Part shown: one piece after another, positions 21,327 through 36,552 of the stretch
Layout of the letters: every line of letters begins with the position of its first letter
Position numbering within the stretch: the first letter of the stretch is position 1
From: a virus
DNA: 36,552 nucleotides
Reading direction: 5' to 3' (one strand)
UHGV virus genome: UHGV-0029170
Notes under the pieces: generated by a model
The model's input: only the letters and a program-made list of their open reading frames with translations
Told to the model about the DNA's origin: nothing
Database searches by the model: none
Made by a program: the position numbers and the translations under genes

Positions 21327-21407
21327 GTGAAACTCCTGTTTGTGTGTTTTGACTTAACGAGATGAAGAATAGCACGAATTGCTAAACGGTCAAAGGTTTT
21401 TTTAACG

Positions 21408-25253: not shown

Positions 25254-26858
25254 TTAGCGGCCCAGCTTTTTCAATCCTGCTAGGCGTTTCATTCGCTCTA
25301 CCGGGTCATCGCTCAGGTTCATTTCCATGTTCGCGGCGTCAAATACGTTGTCGCAAATGTCATCGTGTGGATGTGAATCGTCATAGGTAAATGCGCTCAT
25401 TTCCGCCACAAGCTCCGCAATGAACGGATGGTTGTCCGGCAGTACGACGCGGCCACCCTTGATAATTGGCTGCGCATCCATCGCGCGAGTAACCTTATCT
25501 TTGTCGCGCTGAACCGGGACGATCTCACCCATGCCATTAACTGCTTTGGTCAGATCCTGGATTAGACCCGTACCACTCGCCTTGTCTTCGATGTAAATCT
25601 TTCGCAGATTCCCGCATTCCTTGTTTCCGCGCCAGCACTGCTTAATGAATGCCTCGGCCTGCACACGCAAATCCGGCGCTTCCCACTTGCCACGAATTCC
25701 ATCAATGAAGTAGACGCGATCGCGGTACTTACCCCAATAGCACAACACGGAATAGTCGTTTAGCTCATTCGTCTTCTGCGCGGTATCCGCCGTAATGAAG
25801 GTGTACTCGAACTTGTCCGGGCGCGGTTCATGCGCCTTTTCGCTGTCGCCGTAATAGCGCCACCATTCCGACTTAAATACGTTGCCGCCCAATGCGATCG
25901 GCTCCTGCTGATACTGCGAAAGGAATGTATAAAGATCGGCCTCGCGCAAGGCAACCAGGTTCTCGATCGATTCGTTGTCCTCCCAAAATGACCAGTATTC
26001 GACACCATCAATGACAACCGACGGACCGGATAACACGTCGCGCTCGAACTCGGGACGCAACCAGTCAGGAAGCGATTCGCCGTATTCCCTCGTTACCATC
26101 GCCGGAATAACAATGCGATCGAATTCGATAGCCATCCCGCCGCTCATCATGAACCAGGTGGAATCCTGTGCATGCAGCCGCTGCTGTACGGATAGGATCG
26201 GCGTTTCGTCGCCTTGTTTCTTCTTCGCTCGACGTGATCGAATGGTGTTCTTCAGCAAGGTGTGGCTCTTTTCGCGCTTCACCTTTGAGAACATATCATC
26301 AGGCTTGTCGATATCATCCAGCGCGATTAGGCCACTGAAACCAGGCGTCATGTACCCACCACGCTTACCGACGATCTGACCACCAGACGAACGGGACACC
26401 ATTTCCAGCCTTACGCGTTCATTGTCATCCAGAACCTGGAATTCGTCGATCTGCTTCCGCCCGAATTTAGAGGGCCATAGCTCCTGCCATTCGCCCGATG
26501 AAAAGATCTTGATTACGCGGTCGGAGTTGCCTTTTGAAAGCGCATCACCCTGCGAGATCTGAAGGTTGCGAACCTTCCGGCACTTGAGATACGCATACGG
26601 CGCGAGGTGGATAGAAAACGCTTCGGTTTTCGTCGAACCCGGCGCAACGTTTACGATCGTGCTTTTGCGCTTTCCGGCGATAATTTCATCTACCGTGTGG
26701 CAAAAGTAGGAGTGGTGCCAGTTCCACATCAGCTTTTCGCCCTGGATAATCTGAAACCAGATCTTCAGGAACAGCGAAAAGTTGCGCGTGCTCAATGCCT
26801 TGATTGCCAGCTTATCGGCTGGCTTCAGGTCTTCCCAAATAATCATTTCGTCATTCAT
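25254..26858 (-). CDS. Terminase large subunit
   Basis: 534-aa ORF; N-terminal ATPase-like region (VAPGSTKTEAF) and C-terminal acidic nuclease-like motifs (HPHDDICDNVFDA); follows small terminase gene. Confidence 0.75.
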   Translation of the reverse strand: MNDEMIIWEDLKPADKLAIKALSTRNFSLFLKIWFQIIQGEKLMWNWHHSYFCHTVDEIIAGKRKSTIVNVAPGSTKTEAFSIHLAPYAYLKCRKVRNLQISQGDALSKGNSDRVIKIFSSGEWQELWPSKFGRKQIDEFQVLDDNERVRLEMVSRSSGGQIVGKRGGYMTPGFSGLIALDDIDKPDDMFSKVKREKSHTLLKNTIRSRRAKKKQGDETPILSVQQRLHAQDSTWFMMSGGMAIEFDRIVIPAMVTREYGESLPDWLRPEFERDVLSGPSVVIDGVEYWSFWEDNESIENLVALREADLYTFLSQYQQEPIALGGNVFKSEWWRYYGDSEKAHEPRPDKFEYTFITADTAQKTNELNDYSVLCYWGKYRDRVYFIDGIRGKWEAPDLRVQAEAFIKQCWRGNKECGNLRKIYIEDKASGTGLIQDLTKAVNGMGEIVPVQRDKDKVTRAMDAQPIIKGGRVVLPDNHPFIAELVAEMSAFTYDDSHPHDDICDNVFDAANMEMNLSDDPVERMKRLAGLKKLGR

Positions 26859-26867
26859 GATCGGCCC

Positions 26868-27395
26868 TTAAATCTTGTCCAGAATGTTGCTAACAGCCTT
26901 CTCCAATACTTCATCGGTGATCTCGTTCTTGTTGCCAGCAACGGCGTCAATGTTGAGAACAGCAGGCTTATCGATGCCCATTTCCTTGCCGACGAACGAG
27001 GCGTTAATCATGCCGACGGCAGCAAGCTGGAATTTCTGCTCATAGATTACAGAGTCGATAAACTCCATGACCGGGGCATAGTTCGGGTCGTGGCGATAGC
27101 GTGTAAGCGTCGACTGGTTCACGCCACAAAACAGGCTTAACCCTGTGATCGTGAAAATGCGCGGCTTGTTCACTCCCCACTCGTTAACATCGCCCTGAAA
27201 AGTGGCGGTTTCCGCAGCCTTGATGGCGTTTTCTTCGGCCCACTGGAAATAGCCCTTCGCGATCTCGAAGAATTGTTGTGGCGTCATTTCGGCGGTTCGC
27301 CCCAGCACTACGCCAAAATCTTTTTCGTACAGCGCCTTGAAATTGCCTTCGAAGTGCGATTTCGTTACGCGTTTTTTGCGTTCTTCAGACATTGT
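26868..27395 (-). CDS. Terminase small subunit, putative
   Basis: ATG at 27395 with GGAGG RBS (MSEERKKRV...); first gene after the terminator/promoter junction at ~27.42-27.47 kb. Confidence 0.5.
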   Translation of the reverse strand, partial: TMSEERKKRVTKSHFEGNFKALYEKDFGVVLGRTAEMTPQQFFEIAKGYFQWAEENAIKAAETATFQGDVNEWGVNKPRIFTITGLSLFCGVNQSTLTRYRHDPNYAPVMEFIDSVIYEQKFQLAAVGMINASFVGKEMGIDKPAVLNIDAVAGNKNEITDEVLEKAVSNILDKI

Positions 27396-27422
27396 TAATC
27401 CTCCTTCTGTGTTGAGTTGCGA

Positions 27423-27469
27423 GTATACCAGATTGCAGGCACAAAAAAACCCGCCGAAGCGGGTTATGT
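27423..27469 (-). promoter_or_regulatory. Terminator hairpin (27448-27465) followed by extended -10-like TGgTATACT: early/late junction
   Basis: Minus strand: AACCCGC-TTCG-GCGGGTT + T7 directly after stop at 27470, then CTGGTATACTCGCAA and RBS/ATG of terminase small subunit. Confidence 0.5.
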
Positions 27470-27733
27470 TCATATCAGTTTGTTACGCCGCTTCAGTGTT
27501 TTCTGAAGTGATGCAAAAGGCTCACAGTCAACATACGGGAGCGGCGAAAAAGCAATTCGTTTTGCGATACCTTCCGGATCGCCAATTTTTTCCCAACGCG
27601 CAGTTTTCTTATTGTACATCATGGCAGCAAAAGTGCCTTCATGTACCCGCTTTGAAAGGCGCTCAACAAGGCGAGCCGCGCCAACGTGATAGCCTATGAC
27701 AAGCATTAAAAAAGCAACAATCAGAGTTACCAT
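27470..27733 (-). CDS. Small membrane protein (N-terminal TM helix)
   Basis: 87 aa; MVTLIVAFLMLVIGYHVGAA hydrophobic start; stop/start overlap with upstream 62-aa ORF. Confidence 0.4.
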   Translation of the reverse strand: MVTLIVAFLMLVIGYHVGAARLVERLSKRVHEGTFAAMMYNKKTARWEKIGDPEGIAKRIAFSPLPYVDCEPFASLQKTLKRRNKLI

Positions 27734-27921
27734 TACTTAACTTCCCTTATGTAGTTTATGTTGATTTTGTGAGTATCTAGATTAACGCCGGATCTCTTTT
27801 TTGCTTTCTCTACCGCGTCGGCGGTATCGTTCGCCTCAAGTGTCATGCTGAACTCTTGAATGCAGGATTTGCAAAAGCCACCCATTTTCCTTGCCGTGAG
27901 CATGATTTTGTACTGCATCAT
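27733..27921 (-). CDS. Hypothetical small protein
   Basis: 62 aa; RBS GAGGGG; preceded by hairpin+U-tract at 27934-27950. Confidence 0.4.
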   Translation of the reverse strand: MMQYKIMLTARKMGGFCKSCIQEFSMTLEANDTADAVEKAKKRSGVNLDTHKININYIREVK

Positions 27922-28058
27922 AACCCCTCAATAAAAGCCCCTAAGCGGGGCGCGACTTGCGGACTATCGCCGCCTCTTGTGTCTACGTGACCACGATACC
28001 CGGTCAGCGACAGTGCGTCAATAGGCGGTTGATTCGTTCGCTTGCTTTTTGACCTTTA

Positions 28059-28235
28059 TTACCATCCCCACTTCTCATAGTAGAAGTCATCTACTCGCTT
28101 TCCTGCACAGTAAGCCTCCTCGATTTCACCTTCTGTGATATCGAATGATTTACCGTTTAGCTCTACGATTAGCTCCAGTTGCTCACCCCAATCCTCAAGG
28201 CTAGAGTTCATTCTAGTTGATGATAAATCCGCCAT
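28059..28235 (-). CDS. Hypothetical small acidic protein (not in ORF track)
   Basis: Hand translation MADLSSTRMNSSLEDWGEQLELIVELNGKSFDITEGEIEEAYCAGKRVDDFYYEKWGW; ATG overlaps stop of upstream ORF (TAATG); fills an otherwise empty gap. Confidence 0.35.
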   Translation of the reverse strand: MADLSSTRMNSSLEDWGEQLELIVELNGKSFDITEGEIEEAYCAGKRVDDFYYEKWGW

Positions 28236-28483
28236 TATTCGTATTCTCCATCTTTACGCCCAAAACGCCCTTCCAGGTATCCAGCTATCCAGATAAACTG
28301 GCCGCGAGTAACCAGCGTGTTGATTTGCGCCCAATGTTTATCGATCATCTTCGCGGCGACCTGATCGTAGGTCTTCTTGTCCTTCTTGATGGCGTCTTTT
28401 GTTTCTGCTGCCATCTGCTTTGCTATGCGCTTCACGGCGTTGTACTGCGCTTCATTCAGTCCGAACATTTGGCCTTCTCCCAT
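28235..28483 (-). CDS. Hypothetical protein
   Basis: 82-aa ORF; likely start at internal ATG 28468 (RBS GGGAGAAGG). Confidence 0.4.
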   Translation of the reverse strand: MGEGQMFGLNEAQYNAVKRIAKQMAAETKDAIKKDKKTYDQVAAKMIDKHWAQINTLVTRGQFIWIAGYLEGRFGRKDGEYE

Positions 28484-28692
28484 TCTACCCAGGTTCCGCG
28501 AGCAATGAACACTTCAACACGCAGCGGACTATTGAAATTTTTGTAGATGAAGATGAACCCTTTTCTGCTGTCCGTCTCCACCTGCGCAACCGGGAACGCC
28601 AGCGGCTTGATGGCGTCGTCCGACTCACTCATGCGGATACCAGTAATCGTTGCGCCAATCGGCATATCTTCGACTTTTGAGTATTCAGGCAT
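28456..28692 (-). CDS. Hypothetical protein
   Basis: 78 aa; RBS AAGGAG 10 nt upstream of ATG 28692. Confidence 0.45.
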   Translation of the reverse strand: MPEYSKVEDMPIGATITGIRMSESDDAIKPLAFPVAQVETDSRKGFIFIYKNFNSPLRVEVFIARGTWVEWEKAKCSD

Positions 28693-28761
28693 ACAATCGC
28701 ACTCCTTAAATTTGCGCCCGCCAGAATGGCTTACAGGCGCTTTAAACTGTATTCGATTTCG

Positions 28762-29337
28762 TTAATTTTTTACGTGGTGGCAAGGTTCGCCATCTTTGAC
28801 CTCGCCCCACGCCCGGCGCTTGTTCCGCTCCAACTTTTCCGCCACCGCTTCAGCCAACTGCTCATCACTGAATCCGGCGCGGCGGGTTGCGTCCCATACC
28901 AACATGAGGATATCGGCGAACTCGCTAATGTCATCCGGCGCTTCGGCGGCCTCGATCGCCTCTTTCGCCAGGTGCTTGAGCGGCCCGACTGGCCCAACGT
29001 TGCCGAACTGGCGATCCGACCACTCCGCGTGCTGCTCCCGAATATTGGTGAACGGGTCGGCCTTCACTTCCGGCTCCGCTCGCAGGCATTGAAAATCGCT
29101 CCACGTCTTCGGGTTGTGCTGCATCTCACGCAGGCTCGCTAACGCGCCGTTGATATCCATGCCTTCCGGCCAGTTAACCTTGAACGCTTCAGGCTTGCGG
29201 AAATGCTCGACAAGATCGCCACCAAGAACGGTTTGCTGCATAATCGCCTGCTCTTTGGTGTCGCAGATGAGGCGGAGCGATTTGCGCCCCTCGTTGGTTC
29301 CGATAGTGTAGGTCAGTACCCAAATTTTGTTGCTCAT
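28762..29337 (-). CDS. Putative nucleotide pyrophosphohydrolase (MazG-like C-terminal domain)
   Basis: ATG 29337 overlaps stop of upstream ORF (ATGA); C-terminal EWSDRQFG...LKHLAKEAIEAAEAPDDISEFADILMLVWDATRRAGF...AEKLERNKRR resembles MazG/dNTP-pyrophosphohydrolase helices. Confidence 0.45.
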   Translation of the reverse strand: MSNKIWVLTYTIGTNEGRKSLRLICDTKEQAIMQQTVLGGDLVEHFRKPEAFKVNWPEGMDINGALASLREMQHNPKTWSDFQCLRAEPEVKADPFTNIREQHAEWSDRQFGNVGPVGPLKHLAKEAIEAAEAPDDISEFADILMLVWDATRRAGFSDEQLAEAVAEKLERNKRRAWGEVKDGEPCHHVKN

Positions 29338-29546
29338 TCTTCCACAACCTCGCATTCGTCTTCGCTCACGCTGATATTGTCACCAGCCTGGATAAATTCG
29401 CTATTGCGCGGGGCAATTACGCAGTATGAGCCGTCATTGAAGTGGCCATCGACCTCAAGAATGTCGCCGATTTTGAGGCCGCATTCTTCCAGGGTAATTG
29501 AGCCGTCGCCGTTGAGTGTGTCGATTTTGGTGATTTTGATTTTCAT
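29334..29546 (-). CDS. Hypothetical small acidic protein
   Basis: 70 aa, net charge about -11; first ORF downstream of cassette copy 29559-29621. Confidence 0.45.
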   Translation of the reverse strand: MKIKITKIDTLNGDGSITLEECGLKIGDILEVDGHFNDGSYCVIAPRNSEFIQAGDNISVSEDECEVVEE

Positions 29547-29558
29547 TGCTGTAACTCC

Positions 29559-29621
29559 GTTTCGTTTCGATGGGGTAACTATACCAGCTTACCCCCGATC
29601 GGTTTTAGCAATTCGTGCTAT
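29559..29621 (-). promoter_or_regulatory. Conserved promoter/operator cassette copy
   Basis: Minus strand: ATAGCACGAATTGCTAAAACCGATCGGGGGTAAGCTGGTATAGTTACCCCATCGAAACG. Confidence 0.5.
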
Positions 29622-29817
29622 TTGGCAGGCCATCCATGACTTTCAGTTTAACCCACTCGATGCGCCCCTGCGCCTCGGCAATGCCTAACTCATAACTCGC
29701 GCCTTTCTGGTGAGGGCGAACCCGCCAGCGTTTGCCGCCCTCATCGCACCAGTAATAGAACTTCCCGCGAAAGCGCACGTTGTAGGTAAAGCCGTTGAAC
29801 CACATTTTGATGTTCAT
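29605..29817 (-). CDS. Hypothetical protein (basic, Trp/Tyr-rich)
   Basis: 70 aa; stop TAA lies inside Box A of the downstream cassette. Confidence 0.4.
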   Translation of the reverse strand: MNIKMWFNGFTYNVRFRGKFYYWCDEGGKRWRVRPHQKGASYELGIAEAQGRIEWVKLKVMDGLPNSTNC

Positions 29818-29825
29818 GTATCACC

Positions 29826-30050
29826 TCACCACTTAAAATTGCGGGAAATGATCACGCTGCCAACGGCGGAAAGTGCAATCCAGGGCCAGCACAACACAGG
29901 ATAAAGATCGTCTTTGTCGGTAGAGTCCGCAGATTTCAGGAAGGCCCGCGTGAGGAAACAGCCGCACGCATACAGGGCCAGAATAAGAACCACCAGGGCA
30001 ATAATTGCGTAAATCATGATGTTTTTCCTTGTCTTTGGTGGGGTAGCCAT
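29826..30050 (-). CDS. Small membrane protein (two predicted TM segments)
   Basis: IMIYAIIALVVLILALYACGCF and WPWIALSAVGSVIIS hydrophobic stretches; RBS GGAG 7 nt before ATG 30050. Confidence 0.4.
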   Translation of the reverse strand: MATPPKTRKNIMIYAIIALVVLILALYACGCFLTRAFLKSADSTDKDDLYPVLCWPWIALSAVGSVIISRNFKW

Positions 30051-30082
30051 GCAGCAACTCCGGTTAGTGTTTGTGGTTCGTG

Positions 30083-30403
30083 CTATTGCTGGAGTTTTGC
30101 GAAGGCGTCGGCCATCATGCGCAAAACTCGCGCGTGATCTTCAACGTCATAGCCAGGTTCGGTGCGCATGATTTCCCGAATCTTCTCGATCGTGGCGATA
30201 GCCTCCTGAAGTTCACCAGTCAGGAAAGCAACCTGCTGTTCAAGCTCCGCTATTCGTGAGAACGGTTCACGCATGAATGATTCGCACGAGGCATCACTAA
30301 GAGCCCAATCGATCCCGGCGCGAATAACGGCTTTTAACAGCGGGTCGTCGTCTTTGGCGAAGTTGTCGGACGGGATCAGGTGTATGATTTGTGTGGTGTT
30401 CAT
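30083..30403 (-). CDS. Hypothetical protein
   Basis: Start set to ATG 30403 (MNTTQII...) because ORF-track start lies inside the upstream cassette. Confidence 0.4.
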   Translation of the reverse strand: MNTTQIIHLIPSDNFAKDDDPLLKAVIRAGIDWALSDASCESFMREPFSRIAELEQQVAFLTGELQEAIATIEKIREIMRTEPGYDVEDHARVLRMMADAFAKLQQ

Positions 30404-30430
30404 GGTTAGGATCCATCTCTTGTTAGTGTT

Positions 30431-30479
30431 GGGATAGTATGCACCATCCCCGGACGTTCGTTTTAGCAATTAGTGCTAT
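30431..30479 (-). promoter_or_regulatory. Conserved promoter/operator cassette copy
   Basis: Minus strand: ATAGCACTAATTGCTAAAACGAACGTCCGGGGATGGTGCATACTATCCC. Confidence 0.45.
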
Positions 30480-30967
30480 CAAAGGGCGTCTAATTCCGCC
30501 TCAATGAATTCGTACCACTCGTGGCCGTTTGCGGGATCGTGTTCGGTTCCATGCAGCCAGTCCGTATGGGTGGAACAGAATTCGCCGGATTTGTTGAAGT
30601 AAAAGTCGGCCCATGACCGCGCCCAATCGCCGACGCCAGCGAACGTGCCGAACTTGCGGATGTATGCGTCGGTGTATCCGCGCTGCTTCGCTATGCGCTT
30701 CAGTGCGCGAACCAGCAACTTACGCGGAGACGCCTTTGACACTTTCCGCAGGTGGAAAAGCGCGTTTTCCGGCTCGCTACCAACACGGATGGTCAAATCT
30801 TCGTCAGCATCCAGCGGATTGACGATAAATTCGTTAAGGTATCCGCCCTGGATTACGTGCGCTGTGCCTAGTGGCTCGCGCACCTCGACGGCATCGAATA
30901 CGCAGCCGATAAGGTGGCGCTCACGTTCGCGGGCCGCATTGACAACCATAAGTTTGACGGTTTTCAT
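30479..30967 (-). CDS. Hypothetical protein
   Basis: 162-aa ORF; start ATG overlaps stop of upstream gene (TAATG). Confidence 0.45.
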   Translation of the reverse strand: MKTVKLMVVNAARERERHLIGCVFDAVEVREPLGTAHVIQGGYLNEFIVNPLDADEDLTIRVGSEPENALFHLRKVSKASPRKLLVRALKRIAKQRGYTDAYIRKFGTFAGVGDWARSWADFYFNKSGEFCSTHTDWLHGTEHDPANGHEWYEFIEAELDAL

Positions 30968-31185
30968 TATCGGATCTCCTTCACCTGGTGAACTTCGAGA
31001 AGGTTGGTTACTTCACGGATGCCGCAGTCCTCGAATTCCTCTTCGGCCCCTGCTGCCACCCTTAATCTGGTAAACCCGGCGTCATCGTCGATTGCGACTT
31101 CAATAACCTGCTCGCTCGAAAGCTCGATGTATGCGCAGCCGTAGGAATTCAGCTCTTCCAGCAGTGCGATTAAATTGTCGTTCAT
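30967..31185 (-). CDS. Hypothetical small acidic protein
   Basis: 72 aa, net charge about -12 (DDD, EEEFED runs); ATG 31185 with AGGAG RBS. Confidence 0.45.
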   Translation of the reverse strand: MNDNLIALLEELNSYGCAYIELSSEQVIEVAIDDDAGFTRLRVAAGAEEEFEDCGIREVTNLLEVHQVKEIR

Positions 31186-31212
31186 TGCGTTGCTCCTGAT
31201 TGGATTGTTCAC

Positions 31213-31268
31213 TTCAGTAACGCCACTTTATCAAATGACGTTACGGCAGTTTTAACAAAAAGTGCTAT
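31213..31268 (-). promoter_or_regulatory. Conserved cassette copy (variant with GTAACG...CGTTAC inverted repeat)
   Basis: Minus strand: ATAGCACTTTTTGTTAAAACTGCCGTAACGTCATTTGATAAAGTGGCGTTACTG. Confidence 0.45.
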
Positions 31269-31450
31269 TCTTTTTCGCCGCTGAACGCTGCCCGATACCC
31301 ACGGCGGAACCCGTTAATCTCCGACAGGCGGCATACGCCAATAATCATGCACAGCATTCCGATCGTCTGCCAGCCTACGTGGTCATGCAGTGCCAGGCCG
31401 CCCAGGAAGAAAGCCCAATACAGCGCGAGTTTCTTTTTGCTTACTTTCAT
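31265..31450 (-). CDS. Small membrane protein
   Basis: 61 aa; hydrophobic LALYWAFFLGGLAL and IGMLCMIIGV segments. Confidence 0.4.
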   Translation of the reverse strand: MKVSKKKLALYWAFFLGGLALHDHVGWQTIGMLCMIIGVCRLSEINGFRRGYRAAFSGEKE

Positions 31451-31692
31451 ACTTTCACCTCAAATAGAACGTTGTTTTCGTATGGCCTATTGGCATACAT
31501 GGCGATCTTTTCGTCCGGCATACGGCAGGCGGGCCAGAATTCTTCGTCCTCAGTAGTTACCTGGTCGTCCTGCAAAATCCATACTTCATCAAGGCCAGGG
31601 CCGAACCTGGCTTCATACTCGCGGCCAGGTGTGAAATAGGTGGATAGCGGCGAATAGCCAGCGTGCGTGCAAATTACTTTTACCGTTTCCAT
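31447..31692 (-). CDS. Hypothetical protein
   Basis: 81 aa; start overlaps upstream stop (TAATG). Confidence 0.4.
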   Translation of the reverse strand: METVKVICTHAGYSPLSTYFTPGREYEARFGPGLDEVWILQDDQVTTEDEEFWPACRMPDEKIAMYANRPYENNVLFEVKV

Positions 31693-31994
31693 TAGTAGAT
31701 CCCGTTAGTCCAAACGTAGCCGTGTTCGATTATCTCGCGCAGCTTAACCTTCTTCGGCGCTGGATTTACTCCGTCTCCGCCAGTGTAGAACCCTGTTCCA
31801 TACGCAAAATGAACCTGCTTCGCGAACAGTCCGCCGCGCGCCTGGATGTAAAGTCGGTTGCGCATGGCCAGACCTCTAAGCGTGTTGACCTGCTCGATGG
31901 GGTCGCCTTTTACATTCGAGATCTTGCACATTACTGGCTTTTCGCCAAATTGCCCGGTTAAGCAGTGGCGGTCGAAGTCTGATAAACGTATCAT
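31692..31994 (-). CDS. Hypothetical protein
   Basis: 100-aa ORF in the co-directional array. Confidence 0.4.
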   Translation of the reverse strand: MIRLSDFDRHCLTGQFGEKPVMCKISNVKGDPIEQVNTLRGLAMRNRLYIQARGGLFAKQVHFAYGTGFYTGGDGVNPAPKKVKLREIIEHGYVWTNGIY

Positions 31995-32003
31995 CCAGAC
32001 ACC

Positions 32004-32375
32004 TCAAAGCTGATTTGCAAAGATGTGCCAGACGTGATCTTCTGGCGTGCGTTTCATTAGTTTGTGCGCCTTGCGTGCCATGCGCTTATAGTCGCGGGCG
32101 GTAAGTTTCGTGGGGTCGGCAACGAACGATTCAACAATTAACCCATCGCAATGATATTCCGGCAGCCATTCCCGATGGGTTCGCCATTCGTTGAAAGTGG
32201 TTAGCTGGATAACGGAATGCAAGTCACTGTGAAGGTGCTCCCCGCGCTCGCCGTAATGGAAAGCTCCGCGAATTTTGCCATCATTGCCTACGTGCAAAAG
32301 GTGAATGCGGCTTTTCTTGCCTTCGAAGTTGGTTCCGACGATGGCGACAACTGCGTTTTTGACGATCTGCTTCAT
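32004..32375 (-). CDS. Hypothetical protein (His-rich)
   Basis: 123 aa; first ORF downstream of cassette copy 32400-32448. Confidence 0.45.
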   Translation of the reverse strand: MKQIVKNAVVAIVGTNFEGKKSRIHLLHVGNDGKIRGAFHYGERGEHLHSDLHSVIQLTTFNEWRTHREWLPEYHCDGLIVESFVADPTKLTARDYKRMARKAHKLMKRTPEDHVWHIFANQL

Positions 32376-32399
32376 GGTGAATCTCCGTTGTTTGGTGTA

Positions 32400-32448
32400 T
32401 GGCCATTATGCCCGATCTGCTGACCGGGCGTTTAGCAAAAAGTGCTAT
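32400..32448 (-). promoter_or_regulatory. Conserved promoter/operator cassette copy
   Basis: Minus strand: ATAGCACTTTTTGCTAAACGCCCGGTCAGCAGATCGGGCATAATGGCC. Confidence 0.5.
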
Positions 32449-32646
32449 TCAGAAACAGAGCGCCTCACGCTCCAGGCTGGCCAGTGACGGAAAGCTGAAT
32501 TTTGTAACGTGGTACGAGCCGCCAACATAGCCGGAAATGCTGATATTGTTGAACTCAACCTCAACACTGATAATCTTCATGTTCTTGCTGAAGGCGTACA
32601 TTGCAAGCGCACGGTGCGCCCGCGCCAGGAATTCGAATTGGTTCAT
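32449..32646 (-). CDS. Hypothetical protein
   Basis: 65 aa; ATG overlaps upstream stop (ATGA). Confidence 0.35.
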   Translation of the reverse strand: MNQFEFLARAHRALAMYAFSKNMKIISVEVEFNNISISGYVGGSYHVTKFSFPSLASLEREALCF

Positions 32647-32900
32647 TTAAAGATCGCCCCTTTGATTTTGTTCCAGAAAGCGAATGGCTGACGCTGCGGC
32701 TTCAGTTCCACGATATCGTGATCATAGAATCCGCGATGCTTGCCGCAAAGGAGCGGCTGCACGCCATCCGTTACCATATCGCCAATGAAGAACCGCTTGC
32801 CGCTATCCATGAAGTAAAGGCCGTGGCATACGCCTGGCGCGGCATGAGTTGCGGTATCTGGCAGGCTGTATACCCTGCCGCGAGATTTGAATTGCTGCAT
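32643..32900 (-). CDS. Hypothetical protein
   Basis: Start set to ATG 32900 (MQQFK...) with AGGAGA RBS. Confidence 0.4.
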   Translation of the reverse strand: MQQFKSRGRVYSLPDTATHAAPGVCHGLYFMDSGKRFFIGDMVTDGVQPLLCGKHRGFYDHDIVELKPQRQPFAFWNKIKGAIFK

Positions 32901-32941
32901 TATCCTGTCTCCTTGCATAATTTGGTCGTTAATCGACTTCG

Positions 32942-32990
32942 TGATAATTATGCCCGATCCTCTGACCGGGCGTTTAGCAATGCGTGCTAT
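32942..32990 (-). promoter_or_regulatory. Conserved promoter/operator cassette copy
   Basis: Minus strand: ATAGCACGCATTGCTAAACGCCCGGTCAGAGGATCGGGCATAATTATCAC. Confidence 0.5.
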
Positions 32991-33307
32991 TTCAGGCCGC
33001 GAAGGTCAATCTTCGATCTTGCCCAATCAGGGAAGCGAGCCATTTCGCCAACCTGAACCATTTTGTTTCCGCCCGGCCCCTTATCCACCCATGAATCAGG
33101 CGAGTAGCTCAGTAGGCGAACATTTTCAACGGTCGACTCATAGGCCCAAATCGCCCCGTCTTCATCAATGGCAACCGTGTTAGTCCAAACTGGCACGTCA
33201 AGCGACTGCATATCGAACGTGCCAGGGATGTTAATCTGGAAGGCTACAACGTGGCGCTGCGTGATGGTGGCCACTACTTGCTCGCCGGATTTAACTTCGT
33301 TAATCAT
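32987..33307 (-). CDS. Hypothetical protein
   Basis: Start set to ATG 33307 (MINEVKSGEQ...) with AAGGAG RBS. Confidence 0.4.
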   Translation of the reverse strand: MINEVKSGEQVVATITQRHVVAFQINIPGTFDMQSLDVPVWTNTVAIDEDGAIWAYESTVENVRLLSYSPDSWVDKGPGGNKMVQVGEMARFPDWARSKIDLRGLK

Positions 33308-33317
33308 TGCGTTCTCC

Positions 33318-33530
33318 TTACAGGAACATTCCAGCCAGGCGCAGGCGGGTAATGATGCTATCCCGTTTAGCGCGCAGGCCATCATAGTAATCTTCCAGTT
33401 GCGCATCCCATGACGGCAGGTCAAGCATAAGATTCATTTCGTTGCACACCACCTTCAGCGCGTGGAAGTGTTGCTCTACCGCGCGACGGTGAAATGCTGC
33501 ATTGAGTGGGTTGTTTTGGTTGCCGATCAT
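33318..33530 (-). CDS. Hypothetical protein
   Basis: 70 aa; first ORF downstream of cassette copy 33545-33602. Confidence 0.4.
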   Translation of the reverse strand: MIGNQNNPLNAAFHRRAVEQHFHALKVVCNEMNLMLDLPSWDAQLEDYYDGLRAKRDSIITRLRLAGMFL

Positions 33531-33544
33531 GTTTACGCTCCTCT

Positions 33545-33602
33545 GTTTCGATGGGGTAATGATAGCGCATCACCCCGATTGCGTTTTAACAAAAAGTGCT
33601 AT
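33545..33602 (-). promoter_or_regulatory. Conserved promoter/operator cassette copy
   Basis: Minus strand: ATAGCACTTTTTGTTAAAACGCAATCGGGGTGATGCGCTATCATTACCCCATCGAAAC. Confidence 0.5.
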
Positions 33603-34093
33603 TACTGTGGGATCTGGAAGCAGAGTTCCCGCCAGTTGCGATGCTCGCGGCCAGTGTTGCCCAGGAAGCAGACTGTTCGCGCAATGTGGCCGTACTGCTC
33701 CGAACCGCGAATCCATTCGCCCAGGTAATCATTCGCGTCGTCGTCATCCGGCAGGCAGTGGCGCGGGCGCATCTTGAATGCGAAGACGTCGCCGTTACCG
33801 TCGATGGCAATGTGGGTGGCCCCGCCCTGGATGGCCGTCTGTGCGGTTGCAGTCGTGGTGCTTTTGTCGATGCCAGCCAGGAAGTTAGAGAATTCGTTCA
33901 TGGCCATGCTCTTTTGCTCCGGCTCCGCCTCGACAAGCAGAAGTGTATCGTTGCCGACCATCGCAAAGAAGATCGCCGCTGTCATATTCGACTTCTTCAC
34001 AATCTTGCCTTCGCGCTTGCGCATCATCACTGCGTCATCTTCCAGCCAGTAAATCAGGCCATTAAGGGTGTTGAGGTATTCGCGAGATTTCAT
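33602..34093 (-). CDS. Hypothetical protein
   Basis: 163 aa; RBS GGAGCA before ATG 34093; first ORF downstream of cassette copy 34110-34169. Confidence 0.45.
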   Translation of the reverse strand: MKSREYLNTLNGLIYWLEDDAVMMRKREGKIVKKSNMTAAIFFAMVGNDTLLLVEAEPEQKSMAMNEFSNFLAGIDKSTTTATAQTAIQGGATHIAIDGNGDVFAFKMRPRHCLPDDDDANDYLGEWIRGSEQYGHIARTVCFLGNTGREHRNWRELCFQIPQ

Positions 34094-34109
34094 TGTGGTG
34101 CTCCGTTGT

Positions 34110-34169
34110 TCGTTTCGATGGGGTTACTATAGCAAGCCGCCCCGATCGTGTTTTAACAAAAAGTGCTAT
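34110..34169 (-). promoter_or_regulatory. Conserved promoter/operator cassette copy (extended -10-like TGCTATAGT)
   Basis: Minus strand: ATAGCACTTTTTGTTAAAACACGATCGGGGCGGCTTGCTATAGTAACCCCATCGAAACGAAC. Confidence 0.5.
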
Positions 34170-34381
34170 TTGAAGTTGTGAACCTGGTTCCCGCCGCTGT
34201 GGTCGTCAATGTCAACGCCGTCGCAGGTGACGTAAAAGCCGCGAATTACGGTGAAGCGCCACTTGCCTAACCAGTGGAAGTATACGCCGTGCTCGCTGCC
34301 ATGGACGGCTTTGGTTGATGAGTATGGGATCGGCATCCCGGCGAAGGTGCGAAGTTTGGTTGTTGCTGAAAATCGTGGCAT
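34166..34381 (-). CDS. Hypothetical protein
   Basis: ORF 34166-34387; start probably ATG 34381 (AGGAGG RBS 7 nt upstream). Confidence 0.4.
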   Translation of the reverse strand: MPRFSATTKLRTFAGMPIPYSSTKAVHGSEHGVYFHWLGKWRFTVIRGFYVTCDGVDIDDHSGGNQVHNFK

Positions 34382-34450
34382 GGCCATTCCTCCTGGCGTT
34401 TGCCGTGCTGGTGGTGGGAATATAGCGCCACCGAAGCGGCGCTATTGTGA

Positions 34451-34558
34451 TTATTTACCCTGGCGCGCAAGGTAGCGCTCTTTGAGTTTCTGCCAGTGCC
34501 AGCGCATAACGTGTTCGTTATGGTAGTTGCTGGTTGAATATGGATTCTTCTTGCTCAT
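34451..34558 (-). CDS. Very small basic protein, about 35 aa (not in ORF track)
   Basis: Hand translation MSKKNPYSTSNYHNEHVMRWHWQKLKERYLARQGK; GGAG 8 nt upstream of ATG 34558; fills gap between neighbouring genes. Confidence 0.25.
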   Translation of the reverse strand: MSKKNPYSTSNYHNEHVMRWHWQKLKERYLARQGK

Positions 34559-34575
34559 CTTCATCTCCAGGTTGC

Positions 34576-34761
34576 TTACTTGATTCGAACTTCAACTTCA
34601 ATGTCGGACTGCGGCGCGAAGAGTTGGGCCTTTCCATTAACGCGAATGGTAAGAATGTTCCCCTTGCGATCTGCTGCGAGAACCAGGCGAAACTTGCCAG
34701 CAAACTTAACCATCATTCCCGGCTTAACTTCGCTCATCTTGATAACCTTATCCATCTTCAT
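34576..34761 (-). CDS. Hypothetical small protein
   Basis: Start set to ATG 34761 (MKMDKVIKM...) with GAGGTGA RBS; first ORF downstream of cassette copy 34770-34830. Confidence 0.4.
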   Translation of the reverse strand: MKMDKVIKMSEVKPGMMVKFAGKFRLVLAADRKGNILTIRVNGKAQLFAPQSDIEVEVRIK

Positions 34762-34769
34762 CACCTCAG

Positions 34770-34830
34770 TTCGTTGTCGATGGGTAAATAATACCGGATC
34801 TCGCCATCGGCGTTTTAGCAAAAAGTGCTA
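34770..34830 (-). promoter_or_regulatory. Conserved promoter/operator cassette copy
   Basis: Minus strand: ATAGCACTTTTTGCTAAAACGCCGATGGCGAGATCCGGTATTATTTACCCATCGACAACGAAC. Confidence 0.5.
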
Positions 34831-35037
34831 TCTTTCCACCTCGTGCATATCGCCAACCGAAAGATAATAAGCGATATCAAGGCGGCTCATTGTGGGATGA
34901 GGCCAGCCGCATTCATGCCAGATAACATCGCCCTCGCCTTTAGTCCACATGGTTTCGCCATCCCAGCGCCAAAGGCGGTTATTGAGGCGCGATCCGTAGA
35001 CCGCGCCAGGTTTTACATCGCTCGCCTTAAAATTCAT
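34828..35037 (-). CDS. Hypothetical protein
   Basis: ORF 34828-35088; likely start at internal ATG 35037 (MNFKASDVKPG...). Confidence 0.35.
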   Translation of the reverse strand: MNFKASDVKPGAVYGSRLNNRLWRWDGETMWTKGEGDVIWHECGWPHPTMSRLDIAYYLSVGDMHEVER

Positions 35038-35179
35038 AATCGACAACCCCGAACTCGTTAACGATCTGCGCCTTGTAAAAGCCACCATTTGCCGCCAGAT
35101 TGTAGCACGCCGCCACGGTCTCGAACTCGCGCACTTCCGGCTTGCTGTTTTCGTGTTCCCAGGTAATCAGAGTAATCAT
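35027..35179 (-). CDS. Hypothetical small protein, about 50 aa
   Basis: Start set to ATG 35179 (MITLITWEH...) with GAGGAAACC RBS, because ORF-track start lies inside the upstream cassette. Confidence 0.35.
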   Translation of the reverse strand: MITLITWEHENSKPEVREFETVAACYNLAANGGFYKAQIVNEFGVVDYEF

Positions 35180-35191
35180 TTCGGTTTCCTC

Positions 35192-35255
35192 GGTTCGTTG
35201 TCGATGAAGAGATAATACCCGATCGCTCTGACCGGGTTTTAACAAAAAGTGCTAT
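35192..35255 (-). promoter_or_regulatory. Conserved promoter/operator cassette copy
   Basis: Minus strand: ATAGCACTTTTTGTTAAAACCCGGTCAGAGCGATCGGGGTATTATCTCTTCATCGACAACGAAC. Confidence 0.5.
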
Positions 35256-35557
35256 TGCGGGCAGTCGAGGCTAATGATGTTGTCGGCCTCATCGGCCATC
35301 ATCGCCAGGACGTTCGACGCGCCGATGAATTCCGGCTTCGTCACTGCCTGGCCCGTCTCGGTGATGTGCTGAATGTAAGATTCAGATTCCGGGAGAAATG
35401 ACATTAACAGCAAGTCGGCTGTAACGCATTCCAGGGCGGTTGGATTTTCGTCGTCCGATGCAGTGGCAATGGCTGCGATAACCTCCTGCTCGCTGATTGG
35501 CGTGTCGCCCAGGCGCATCGGTGCCGCCGGGTCGTTTTGGTCTGGATATAGTTTCAT
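35252..35557 (-). CDS. Hypothetical acidic protein
   Basis: 101 aa, net charge about -14; second gene of the minus-strand array. Confidence 0.45.
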   Translation of the reverse strand: MKLYPDQNDPAAPMRLGDTPISEQEVIAAIATASDDENPTALECVTADLLLMSFLPESESYIQHITETGQAVTKPEFIGASNVLAMMADEADNIISLDCPQ

Positions 35558-35559
35558 GG

Positions 35560-36093
35560 TTATTCTCCTGTGATTTTGGCTTTCAGTGCCATTGTGTAAC
35601 CGTTGTAAAGCAGGCCTTTTGGCATCACTTCGTCAATGATGGCAAGGCATCTTTCCCGCTCAGAGGTAGCGCCCTGCTTTCTGTACGCTTCCGCCTCCAT
35701 GTGCGAGCCAGTCATTGCGTCGAACTCGGTAAAGACGGAGATTAACCCCACCCCCAGGCTCACGCGCAACACCTCGCCCGGCTCCAGGAGTTTCAGCAAC
35801 GGCCTGCGGAAATGGTTGTCGACAGGATGAACGCCGAACTTCTCCGCGAACTCCTCCGCCGTCATCTGGATACGCCGCCCGCCATCCAGGAACATGCGCC
35901 GGATCTCGGAAGAGCGGTTGCCAGTGAATGTGCCTTCCGGCTTCGCGGCTTCCTGGCTCCGCCCGGCTGGCCTGGTGGCGTCACCAAACGTGATGGATTG
36001 CAGCCATTCATGGTACGCGGCCTGTTTTTCTGCGTCGTACTGCATCCACTCGGACACGTCGACTTCCTCGAACTCATAACCTTTATATTGCAT
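35560..36093 (-). CDS. Hypothetical protein, first gene of the minus-strand small-gene array
   Basis: ORF 35560-36108; likely start ATG 36093 (MQYKGYEFEE...) with GGGGGAA RBS; no recognisable motif. Confidence 0.45.
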   Translation of the reverse strand: MQYKGYEFEEVDVSEWMQYDAEKQAAYHEWLQSITFGDATRPAGRSQEAAKPEGTFTGNRSSEIRRMFLDGGRRIQMTAEEFAEKFGVHPVDNHFRRPLLKLLEPGEVLRVSLGVGLISVFTEFDAMTGSHMEAEAYRKQGATSERERCLAIIDEVMPKGLLYNGYTMALKAKITGE

Positions 36094-36287
36094 GTGTTTC
36101 CCCCACATTTACGGCGTTTGTGTGTGTTTGGTAAGGCTATCTTACTGGCTCAAGGCCTTGTCGTCAAAGGGTTTGTGCGTGTGTGGTAAGATTCGGAAGC
36201 ATCCCCTATATACCCCTTTACATATATCGCGCGGCGGAACATCTAAAATTTACGGCTCTCGCAAGATGATTCCGGTAGCCATGCCGG

Positions 36288-36420
36288 GAGAAATCTTACC
36301 AAACATATATAGATAGAGAGAGTAATAATAATAATATTGTTATTTATCATATACTTATATATTTATTATAGTCTTATATTGGTCACTTTTTGTGCAATTT
36401 TCAGGTAAGATTTTTCCTCC
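36288..36420. repeat. AT-rich core flanked by inverted GGAGAAATCTTACC / GGTAAGATTTTTCC arms; partial inverted copy of 2367-2452
   Basis: 36288-36357 matches the reverse complement of 2367-2452 over ~70-85 bp (shared GGAGAAATCTTACCAA...AATAATAATAATATTRTTATTTATCATATACTTA); second arm at 36404-36417. Confidence 0.5.
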
Positions 36421-36552
36421 CCCACATTCCCACACGACGCAAGTGTTGGTGAAACACACCTGACGTTTTGCTGGCTTCGAGCGGCAAATTATGTGCATGG
36501 TGCATACATCTATGCAATTCGTTGCACATCATGAAGCACTCCATCATCACAT

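What the first reader, a model, noticed from the sequence alone, without database searches (positions are those of the whole stretch)
29334..35557. Several small, strongly acidic proteins in the early-type array: candidate DNA mimics / anti-defence factors
ORFs 35252-35557 (101 aa, net about -14), 30967-31185 (72 aa, about -12), 29334-29546 (70 aa, about -11) and the unlisted 28059-28235 ORF are rich in Asp/Glu and poor in Lys/Arg. Small acidic proteins expressed early are a recurring form of anti-restriction and anti-defence DNA mimics in virulent phages. None matches a family I can name, so this is speculative.
Basis: inference. Interest (0 to 1): 0.45.

Follow-up and report, generated by a model that had tools for sequence, protein, structure and literature searches.

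The report
Four unrelated small acidic phage proteins
The four small, strongly acidic genes are real and conserved in this T1-like Klebsiella phage (a Webervirus), but nothing yet shows that they imitate DNA or block bacterial defences, so that idea remains untested.

Summary
The window is a Webervirus (T1-like Klebsiella phage, Drexlerviridae). In detail: ORFs A 35252-35557 (101 aa, net -15), B 30967-31185 (72 aa, -12), C 29334-29546 (70 aa, -11) and D 28059-28235 (58 aa, -9) are the four most acidic genes in a 27-gene minus-strand array upstream of the terminase. A, B and C show purifying selection (dN/dS 0.075-0.20) and conserved acidity; D was not measured. The four families are unrelated to each other and match no Pfam or NCBIfam family and no solved structure. 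They differ in distribution. A is a genus-only accessory ORFan. B occupies its slot in every Webervirus locus with that slot readable, as three divergent alleles. C is widespread across Drexlerviridae. D is rare and also occurs in unrelated phages. The AlphaFold model of A failed (pLDDT 46). B gave a moderate model (pLDDT 77) of a compact alpha+beta fold, closest to YkuJ (function unknown) and to no known DNA mimic among the listed matches. C looks like a small beta-rich domain with a conserved acidic tail. In T7, only Ocr and gp5.9 reach this charge density, so the idea is reasonable. It is neither shown nor refuted. Separately, B and C each sit behind a repeated promoter cassette that contains the 21-nt T1-family repeat.

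The parts
35252..35557 (-). ORF A: 101 aa, net -15, pI 4.05. A Webervirus-only accessory ORFan (phrog_14609) and the second gene of the first transcription unit of the array.
   Evidence: Homologues are at least 66% identical and found almost only in Webervirus-like Klebsiella phages. HMMER against 1.84 billion representatives finds only its own cluster, fragments and one repetitive 1042-aa protein. Present in 19 of 33 related loci and truly absent from the other 14. dN/dS 0.20. AF2 pLDDT 45.8, so no usable model.
30967..31185 (-). ORF B: 72 aa, net -12 (phrog_14852). A compact alpha+beta protein. Three divergent alleles fill this slot in Webervirus genomes.
29334..29546 (-). ORF C: 70 aa, net -11 (phrog_5684). 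A beta-rich protein with two GD motifs and a nearly invariant C-terminal E.EVVEE tail. Widespread in Drexlerviridae. Its stop overlaps the start of the downstream gene by 4 nt.
   Evidence: 451 phage records from Klebsiella, Escherichia, Salmonella and other hosts. Alignment A1. Weak sub-threshold hits to small beta-barrel families DUF5666, FeoA, CDC48_N and designed double-psi barrels. dN/dS 0.075.
28059..28235 (-). ORF D: 58 aa, net -9 (matches the C-terminal part of phrog_519). A rare gene shared between unrelated phage groups, followed by a terminator-like hairpin.
   Evidence: Only 34 phage records, including P22-like Salmonella phage UPF_BP1 gp61, Citrobacter phage Tr1 and the LF82 phages. 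The TAH8 annotation lists no CDS at this position. Terminator-like hairpin at 27937-27951.
31198..31269 (-). Promoter cassette directly upstream of B: 21-nt repeat (palindrome TAGCAC-N4-TGTTA), an inverted repeat, and an extended -10 (TGaTAAAGT).
   Evidence: Nearly the same cassette and 5' UTR precede the acidic T1 gene ST6.
29551..29622 (-). Promoter cassette directly upstream of C: 21-nt repeat, inverted repeat GGGGTAA..TTACCCC around the -10, and an extended -10 (TGgTATAGT).
36139..36167 (-). Canonical sigma-70-like promoter (TTGACG, 17 nt, TAAGAT) at the head of the array, upstream of the 182-aa gene and A.
   Evidence: Consensus scan, 9 of 12 matches; sequence shown. Function is inferred.
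27448..27465 (-). Intrinsic terminator (AACCCGC-TTCG-GCGGGTT followed by a T run) closing the small-gene array just before terS. An extended -10-like TGGTATACT and the terS start at 27392 follow it.
   Evidence: T1 has an annotated terminator in the same place.

Best explanation
Shown: A, B, C and D are four genuine, mutually unrelated, small, cytoplasmic acidic proteins. They lie in the mosaic small-gene array that runs from the divergent control region to the terminator in front of terS in a Webervirus.

Inferred: B and C are each the first gene behind a repeated host-RNA-polymerase promoter cassette. A is the second gene behind a canonical sigma-70 promoter at the head of the array. This layout would have them made before or apart from the structural genes.

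Inferred, not shown (mechanism): they act without catalysis, as stoichiometric binders. Their negatively charged surface or tail would occupy the nucleic-acid-binding or other basic surface of a partner protein.

For the conserved proteins (C across Drexlerviridae, B across Webervirus), the likeliest partner is a conserved host DNA or RNA enzyme or a nucleoid protein. RecBCD-type nucleases are the leading candidate, because T1-like phages have linear DNA ends and, to my knowledge, no known RecBCD inhibitor.

For the patchy proteins (A, D), the likeliest partner is a strain-specific defence system.

They are not members of any known DNA-mimic family.
For: - Real genes with conserved acidity and purifying selection.
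- Four unrelated families (hhalign probability 3% or less).
- No transmembrane segment. By the charge-hydropathy rule A, B and C fall on the folded side and D on the disordered side.
- T7 calibration: of 30 small T7 proteins, only Ocr (-0.239) and gp5.9 (-0.154) reach net charge per residue of -0.145 or lower, and both inhibit host nucleases.
- A is dispensable: 19 of 33 loci carry it.
- D occurs in unrelated phage groups. In a P22-like phage it lies between abc2 and the integrase gene, beside an ead/Ea22-like gene. A preprint calls the recombination-related locus of lambdoid phages an anti-defence hotspot (10.64898/2026.07.10.737580).
- The three B alleles keep both termini and the net charge but diverge in the middle.
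- T1 lacks homologues of all four, yet it has two strongly acidic 69-aa ORFs. ST61 is in the same slot as C, and ST6 sits behind the same promoter and UTR as B.
- In T1 the same promoter cassette precedes the helicase, dam and HNH genes. In front of structural genes it occurs only as two reversed copies and one copy lacking the -10 before terS. A terminator separates the array from terS.
Against: - No sequence, profile or fold link to any known inhibitor or DNA mimic.
- The model of B is a compact globular domain, not an elongated DNA-like shape, and its acidic residues cluster in one hairpin region (mapping by inspection).
- A could not be modelled.
- D+E content of 18-24% is below that of Ocr at 29%.
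- Expression timing has not been measured. No Webervirus transcriptome was found.
- Acidic charge alone is weak evidence.
Confidence: 0.35

Rival explanations
1. The acidic proteins work inside the phage's own programme. They would be partners, chaperones or neutralisers of basic phage proteins encoded nearby, as in an antitoxin-toxin or inhibitor-enzyme pair, or small regulators. On this reading they do not target host defences.
For: The array alternates acidic and basic small ORFs. C is translationally coupled to the next gene in every Drexlerviridae genome examined, although that gene differs between genomes. C is widespread and strongly constrained (dN/dS 0.075), which fits a housekeeping role. 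C gives weak MazE/AbrB-like and beta-barrel hits.
Against: The gene downstream of C is not conserved, so there is no fixed partner gene. A is absent from 14 of 33 related phages with no replacement. D moves between unrelated phages on its own.
Confidence: 0.3
2. One or more of the four are classical Ocr/ArdA-type DNA mimics that block type I restriction-modification and BREX.
For: Small size, pI about 4.1, and charge density equal to that of T7 gp5.9. A is the second gene of the first transcription unit of the array, which recalls the position of T7 gene 0.3.
Against: No Ocr or ArdA Pfam match even at E up to 1, and no PDB sequence or profile match. The fold of B does not match any recognised DNA mimic in the listed hits. 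Charge density is well below that of Ocr. Most Drexlerviridae are restricted by type I, II and III systems (PMC8594841).
Confidence: 0.1
3. C is a degenerate AbrB/MazE (SpoVT) swapped-hairpin or related cradle-loop barrel that acts as a transcription factor or an antitoxin decoy.
For: The motifs LxxCGxxVGDxxEVxG and IGDNISV resemble GD-box barrels (alignment A1). Sub-threshold hits to MazE_antitoxin (E 0.1), DUF5666 (9 of 11 members, best E 0.0011), CDC48_N and designed double-psi barrels. One GenBank record names a homologue 'AbrB family transcriptional regulator-like'.
Against: Every hit is below the curated threshold, and the hits spread over several unrelated small-barrel families. A pI of 4.1 is unusual for a DNA-binding AbrB domain. 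No structure model was available.
Confidence: 0.1
4. The ORFs are chance reading frames or decaying genes without function.
For: They are short and have no known domains.
Against: dN/dS of 0.075-0.20 over many homologues for A, B and C. Ribosome-binding sites are present. Lengths are conserved across hundreds of genomes. PHROG families exist for all four.
Confidence: 0.02

Closest known systems
T7 gp5.9 (RecBCD inhibitor) and T7 Ocr (gp0.3, DNA mimic against type I restriction and BREX)
   Same: They are small acidic phage proteins. gp5.9 has the same charge density as the four ORFs (-0.154 against -0.149 to -0.167). They are encoded among non-structural genes and are non-essential. A is likewise absent from 14 of 33 related phage loci.
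   Different: There is no sequence, profile or fold similarity. Ocr is much more acidic (29% D+E, -0.239). Targets and timing are known for the T7 proteins and unknown here.
YkuJ of Bacillus subtilis (PDB 2ffg, function unknown)
   Different: Only 5% sequence identity. No Pfam match links B to any family. YkuJ itself has no assigned function, so the match says nothing about mechanism.
Small beta-barrel / GD-box domains (DUF5666, FeoA, CDC48_N double-psi barrel, AbrB/MazE)
   Same: C shares GD-containing beta-hairpin motifs with them and gives repeated weak profile hits.
   Different: All hits are below curated thresholds and no single family stands out. C carries a conserved acidic C-terminal tail. 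No model was made.
Accessory small ORFs of the P22/lambdoid ea (recombination-side) region, such as Salmonella phage UPF_BP1 gp61 next to an ead/Ea22-like gene, and the anti-OLD protein Oad2 (HK446 gp27)
   Same: UPF_BP1 gp61 is about 70% identical to D and lies in the region between abc2 and the integrase gene. A preprint describes the recombination-related locus of lambdoid phages as a source of anti-defence genes (10.64898/2026.07.10.737580).
   Different: D is not related to Oad2: no BLASTP alignment and different PHROGs. It also gives no sequence hit to any solved structure. Its own function is untested.
T1 ST61 and ST6
   Same: They are 69-aa, strongly acidic ORFs (net -14 and -17). ST61 sits behind a repeat cassette and overlaps the next gene, as C does. 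ST6 sits behind nearly the same promoter and UTR as B.
   Different: No detectable homology to A-D. They are also uncharacterised.

Membership tests
Ocr (T7 gp0.3) / ArdA DNA-mimic anti-restriction families | Sequence membership in the Pfam Ocr or ArdA families | tested here: not met
   No such Pfam hit for A, B, C or D even at E up to 1. No phmmer or profile hit to any solved structure.
Ocr (T7 gp0.3) / ArdA DNA-mimic anti-restriction families | Elongated fold whose surface carboxylates follow the phosphate pattern of B-DNA | tested here: inconclusive
DNA-mimic proteins as a functional class | Small size, very low pI, high D+E content | tested here: met
   58-101 aa, pI 4.05-4.14, D+E 18-24%. 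This is comparable to T7 gp5.9 and lower than Ocr.
DNA-mimic proteins as a functional class | Binds the DNA-binding site of a target protein and competes with DNA | not testable with these tools
   Needs binding or genetic assays.
AbrB/MazE (SpoVT) swapped-hairpin domain (considered for C) | Pfam PF04014 match above the gathering score | tested here: not met
   13 bits against a 24.7-bit cutoff, in 1 of 11 family members.
DUF5666 / small beta-barrel (considered for C) | Pfam PF18914 match above the gathering score | tested here: not met
   Best E 0.0011. The window protein scores 17.4 bits against a 27-bit cutoff. 9 of 11 members give weak hits. This suggests beta-hairpin motif similarity only.
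YkuJ-like fold (considered for B) | Structural superposition with significant score plus sequence family membership | tested here: inconclusive
Oad2 / EaE anti-OLD proteins (considered for D) | Sequence similarity to HK446 gp27 | tested here: not met
   No BLASTP alignment at E up to 100. Oad2 falls in phrog_614 and D in phrog_519.
Early genes of T1-like phages | Transcribed early by host RNA polymerase | tested here: inconclusive
   Promoter-like cassettes with an invariant A and T in the -10 precede B and C. The same cassette precedes replication genes in T1. A terminator separates the array from terS. No expression data were found.

The most novel reading that the evidence does not exclude
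B, C (with its T1 slot-mate ST61) and possibly A are new folds of electrostatic decoy inhibitors aimed at conserved host DNA enzymes such as RecBCD, or at nucleoid proteins. That would give the first molecular handle on how T1-like phages protect their linear DNA and take over the host, a question the TLS genome paper lists as open (PMC11447400). The divergent middle region of the B alleles would then mark the interface of an arms race.
Probability: 0.15. Interest if true: 0.6.

Novelty: new member of a known kind. Interest (0 to 1): 0.3.

Why it matters
Weberviruses are among the most commonly isolated Klebsiella phages and are candidates for therapy, yet almost their whole left-arm gene array has no assigned function. 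If any of these acidic proteins disables a host nuclease or a defence system, it would help explain host range. It would also add new inhibitor families. As it stands, the finding is a short, prioritised list for wet-lab screening, not a discovery. B (diversifying alleles) and C (family-wide, with a conserved acidic tail) are the best candidates for a conserved host target. A and D are the best candidates for strain-specific counter-defence.

Tried and rejected
- Pfam, NCBIfam and PHROG scans of the four ORFs and ten neighbours gave nothing informative, apart from dATP/dGTP pyrophosphohydrolase in the gene after C and a 'transcriptional regulator' PHROG.
- phmmer and profile searches against all PDB sequences found no real hits. 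The BurrH hit for C comes from many weak repeat matches.
- Homologue searches found close relatives only. A full HMMER scan of 1.84 billion representatives with the A profile found only its own cluster, fragments and one repetitive 1042-aa protein.
- The AF2 model of A was unusable.
- I recalled that AcrIIA4 has an alpha-beta-beta-beta-alpha-alpha fold and might resemble B. It does not appear in the listed matches, so I dropped the lead.
- The idea that D is an Oad2/EaE relative was rejected.
- Homology between A-D and T1 ST61 or ST6 was rejected.
- A sigma-54 reading of the repeat (TAGCAC..TTGC) was rejected by inspection: the spacing is 2 nt too short and GG is replaced by AG.
- Rfam found nothing above threshold.
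- Literature searches for Webervirus or Drexlerviridae anti-defence genes, DNA mimics and transcriptomes gave nothing specific.
Full report
**Identity of the window.** Megablast of 27400-36552 finds about 500 phage records, mostly Klebsiella phages of the genus Webervirus (Drexlerviridae, T1-like). The best are about 92% identical over about 90% of the query. Related genomes annotate the region as some 25 hypothetical proteins upstream of the small and large terminase subunits. In the window, the large terminase gene is 25254-26858 and the small one ends at 26868, both on the minus strand. About 27 small genes follow on the same strand up to 36108.

**The observation.** The four ORFs exist as described.
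- A, 35252-35557: 101 aa, net charge -15, pI 4.05.
- B, 30967-31185: 72 aa, net -12, pI 4.08.
- C, 29334-29546: 70 aa, net -11, pI 4.14.
- D, 28059-28235: 58 aa, net -9, pI 4.07.

They are the four most acidic genes of the array, at -0.149 to -0.167 charge per residue; the next are -0.10 and -0.099. They are also the most acidic of all small ORFs in the window. Each has a GGAG-type ribosome-binding site and its own PHROG family, all of unknown function.

Nei-Gojobori comparison with homologues from fetched loci gives dN/dS of 0.20 for A, 0.14 for B and 0.075 for C. Neighbouring genes give 0.13-0.16. Net charge stays negative in all homologues. dN/dS could not be computed for D. All four are treated as real genes; D also aligns well across four phage groups.

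The count of acidic ORFs is not itself unusual: 4 of 27 against 4 of 64 small proteins in T1 plus T7 (Fisher p = 0.23).

**Four different stories.** Profile-profile comparison shows that the four families are unrelated to each other (hhalign probability 3% or less).

*A.* It is confined almost entirely to Webervirus-like Klebsiella phages: 216 phage records, and 60 protein clusters that are 74-96% identical over the full length. A full HMMER scan of 1.84 billion representative proteins with its profile finds only its own cluster, fragments and one repetitive 1042-aa protein. In 33 related loci anchored on the upstream 182-aa gene, A is present in 19. It is absent from 14, where there is no room for a replacement ORF. 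It is a dispensable accessory gene.

*B.* It also looks genus-restricted by BLAST: 263 records. However, the six loci that seemed to lack it carry a 69-70 aa ORF in the same slot. That ORF has the same N-terminal MND.II.LL helix, the same C-terminal EEIR and the same charge (-11 to -13), but a different middle region. A third allele is 47% identical. B is therefore present in 31 of the 32 loci anchored on the neighbouring 162-aa gene, as divergent alleles. In the remaining locus the slot lies outside the fetched DNA.

*C.* It is found in 451 phage records across Drexlerviridae from Klebsiella, Escherichia, Salmonella, Citrobacter and other hosts, down to 37% identity. It is not universal: 19 of 32 Webervirus loci show it, although some flanks are short, and T1 lacks it. 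An alignment of divergent members shows two GD motifs, one invariant Cys and a nearly invariant C-terminal E.EVVEE. In the annotated genomes examined, its stop overlaps the start of the next gene by 4 nt, although that gene differs between genomes.

*D.* It occurs in only 34 records. These include a minority of weberviruses, the P22-like Salmonella phage UPF_BP1, the 154-kb Citrobacter phage Tr1 and the LF82 phages. It is always a stand-alone ORF of 57-60 aa among small hypothetical genes.

**Comparison with known families.** None of the four reaches any Pfam or NCBIfam threshold. Sequence searches (phmmer) against all PDB chains find nothing for A, B and D, and only chance-level hits for C. 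Profile searches give the same result. The strong-looking BurrH hit for C is the sum of many weak repeat matches. Public sources call the proteins 'hypothetical' or 'unknown function', apart from a few evidently automatic labels such as 'methyltransferase type 11' and 'putative transcriptional regulator'.

Members of the C family give repeated sub-threshold hits to small beta-barrel families: DUF5666 in 9 of 11 members, FeoA, CDC48_N and designed double-psi barrels. There is one weak MazE/AbrB hit. This suggests a small beta-rich domain, no more.

**Structure.** The AlphaFold2 model of A, built on 30 homologues, is unusable (mean pLDDT 45.8, pTM 0.21).

**What speaks for a decoy or inhibitor role.**
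- I computed the same charge measure for all 30 small T7 proteins. Only Ocr (-0.239) and gp5.9 (-0.154) fall at or below -0.145, and both inhibit host nucleases. That gp5.9 is a DNA mimic rests on my own knowledge.
- A is accessory, D is mobile, and the B alleles differ mainly in their middle region.
- T1 has no homologues of A-D, but it has exactly two comparably acidic small ORFs. ST61 (69 aa, -14) follows a repeat cassette and overlaps the next gene, as C does. ST6 (69 aa, -17) has a promoter and 5' UTR nearly identical to those in front of B.
- In the P22-like phage, the D homologue lies between abc2 and the integrase gene, next to an ead/Ea22-like gene. A 2026 preprint describes the recombination-related locus of lambdoid phages as a reservoir of RecBCD inhibitors and anti-immunity proteins (10.64898/2026.07.10.737580). 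D itself is not related to that paper's Oad2.

**What speaks against it.**
- There is no homology or fold link to any known inhibitor.
- B is a compact globular domain.
- D+E content is 18-24%, against 29% in Ocr.
[quoted passage not shown] The C family occurs in such coliphages, for example Bas03. A broad Ocr-like role for C is therefore unlikely.

**Expression context.** The intergenic regions of the array contain a repeated element. On the coding strand it starts at the stop codon of the upstream gene with ATAGCAC-N4-TTG(C/T)TAAA. This is the 21-nt repeat already reported for TLS, T1 and Rtp, whose function is listed as an open question (PMC11447400).

The palindrome TAGCA-N5-TG(C/T)TA occurs 10 times in the window (0.02 expected). 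It occurs about 19 times in T1 (0.29 expected).

Aligning 9 window copies and 11 T1 copies without gaps shows three further features. About 21 nt downstream of the repeat lies a -10 hexamer whose second base (A) and last base (T) are invariant. A nearly invariant G sits two bases upstream of the hexamer, which is the pattern of an extended -10. A nearly invariant A sits 7 nt downstream, which is a plausible transcription start. This places the centre of the palindrome near -42, the position of a class II activator site.

An inverted repeat enclosing the -10 is kept by compensatory changes. It has 75% of cells paired, against 46-50% when the partner columns are slid. It has 26 double-sided changes, against 10.2 +/- 3.0 in shuffles (0 of 500 shuffles reach the observed value).

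B and C are each the first gene behind such a cassette. A follows the 182-aa gene behind a canonical TTGACG-17-TAAGAT promoter at 36139-36167.

In T1 the same cassette precedes the helicase, dam methylase and HNH genes. In the late module it occurs only as two reversed copies, plus one copy lacking the -10 just upstream of terS. A strong intrinsic terminator at 27448-27465 separates the array from terS. All this fits early or middle expression by host RNA polymerase. No transcript data exist to confirm it.

**Conclusion.** The interpretation can be neither confirmed nor refuted with these tools. My preferred reading, at about 0.35, is that these are non-enzymatic acidic binders. B and C would be aimed at a conserved host nucleic-acid enzyme, with RecBCD the leading candidate. 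A and D would be aimed at variable defences. The main rival, at about 0.3, is a role inside the phage's own programme as partners of basic phage proteins. A classical Ocr-like anti-restriction role is unlikely (about 0.1). The proteins are new, uncharacterised members of the familiar class of small acidic phage proteins.

Noticed in passing
window 29551-29622, 30409-30480, 31198-31269, 32378-32449, 32920-32991, 33532-33603, 34099-34170, 34761-34832, 35185-35256 (minus strand); L112 (T1), about 19 sites: The 21-nt T1-family repeat (aaATAGCACnnnTTGnTAAAA) is already reported for TLS, with its function listed as open (PMC11447400). Here it is the upstream half of a fixed cassette. The cassette has a palindrome TAGCA-N5-TGYTA centred near -42, an extended -10 about 21 nt downstream with an invariant A and T, a likely +1 A, and an inverted repeat around the -10 kept by compensatory changes. 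This suggests activator- or repressor-controlled extended -10 promoters.
   Followed up: partly
L088:1292-1501, L102:1289-1501, L105/L106/L109/L110:1292-1501, L104:1283-1501: The B slot holds three divergent alleles of 69-72 aa. All are acidic (-9 to -13). They share conserved N- and C-termini and differ in the middle region. tblastn missed the most divergent allele.
   Followed up: partly
L112 (T1) 6607-6816 (ST61) and 47118-47327 (ST6): T1 lacks homologues of A-D but has two 69-aa ORFs of net -14 and -17. ST61 occupies the same slot as C. ST6 sits behind a promoter and 5' UTR nearly identical to those upstream of B.
   Followed up: partly
window 27380-27480: A strong intrinsic terminator (27448-27465) lies between the last small gene and terS. 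An extended -10-like TGGTATACT and an AAGGAGG ribosome-binding site follow it. The real terS start is therefore most likely 27392, not the 27473 ATG of the ORF list.
   Followed up: partly
window 28762-29337: The gene translationally coupled to C encodes a dATP/dGTP pyrophosphohydrolase domain (PF04447, E 1.4e-34) in its C-terminal half. Its first 40 residues or so resemble the 47-aa T1 protein ST4.
   Followed up: no
window 21370-21384 (+ strand); L112 15071-15085 and 18835-18849: Isolated copies of the palindrome lie inside the structural-gene module, oriented against the direction of the surrounding genes. The window copy is followed by a terminator-like hairpin.
   Followed up: no
window 36109-36552: An AT-rich region lies at the head of the array, with runs of TATA and ATT repeats. 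In the related phage VAC10, genes beyond the corresponding point are on the opposite strand, so this may be a divergent control region. It could hold further promoters or an origin.
   Followed up: no
window 29605-29817 and 27400-36108 generally: The array is a mosaic. For example, the basic 70-aa ORF upstream of C is detected in only about 9 of 32 related loci. The genes 35027-35179 and 34828-35037 come and go together.
   Followed up: no
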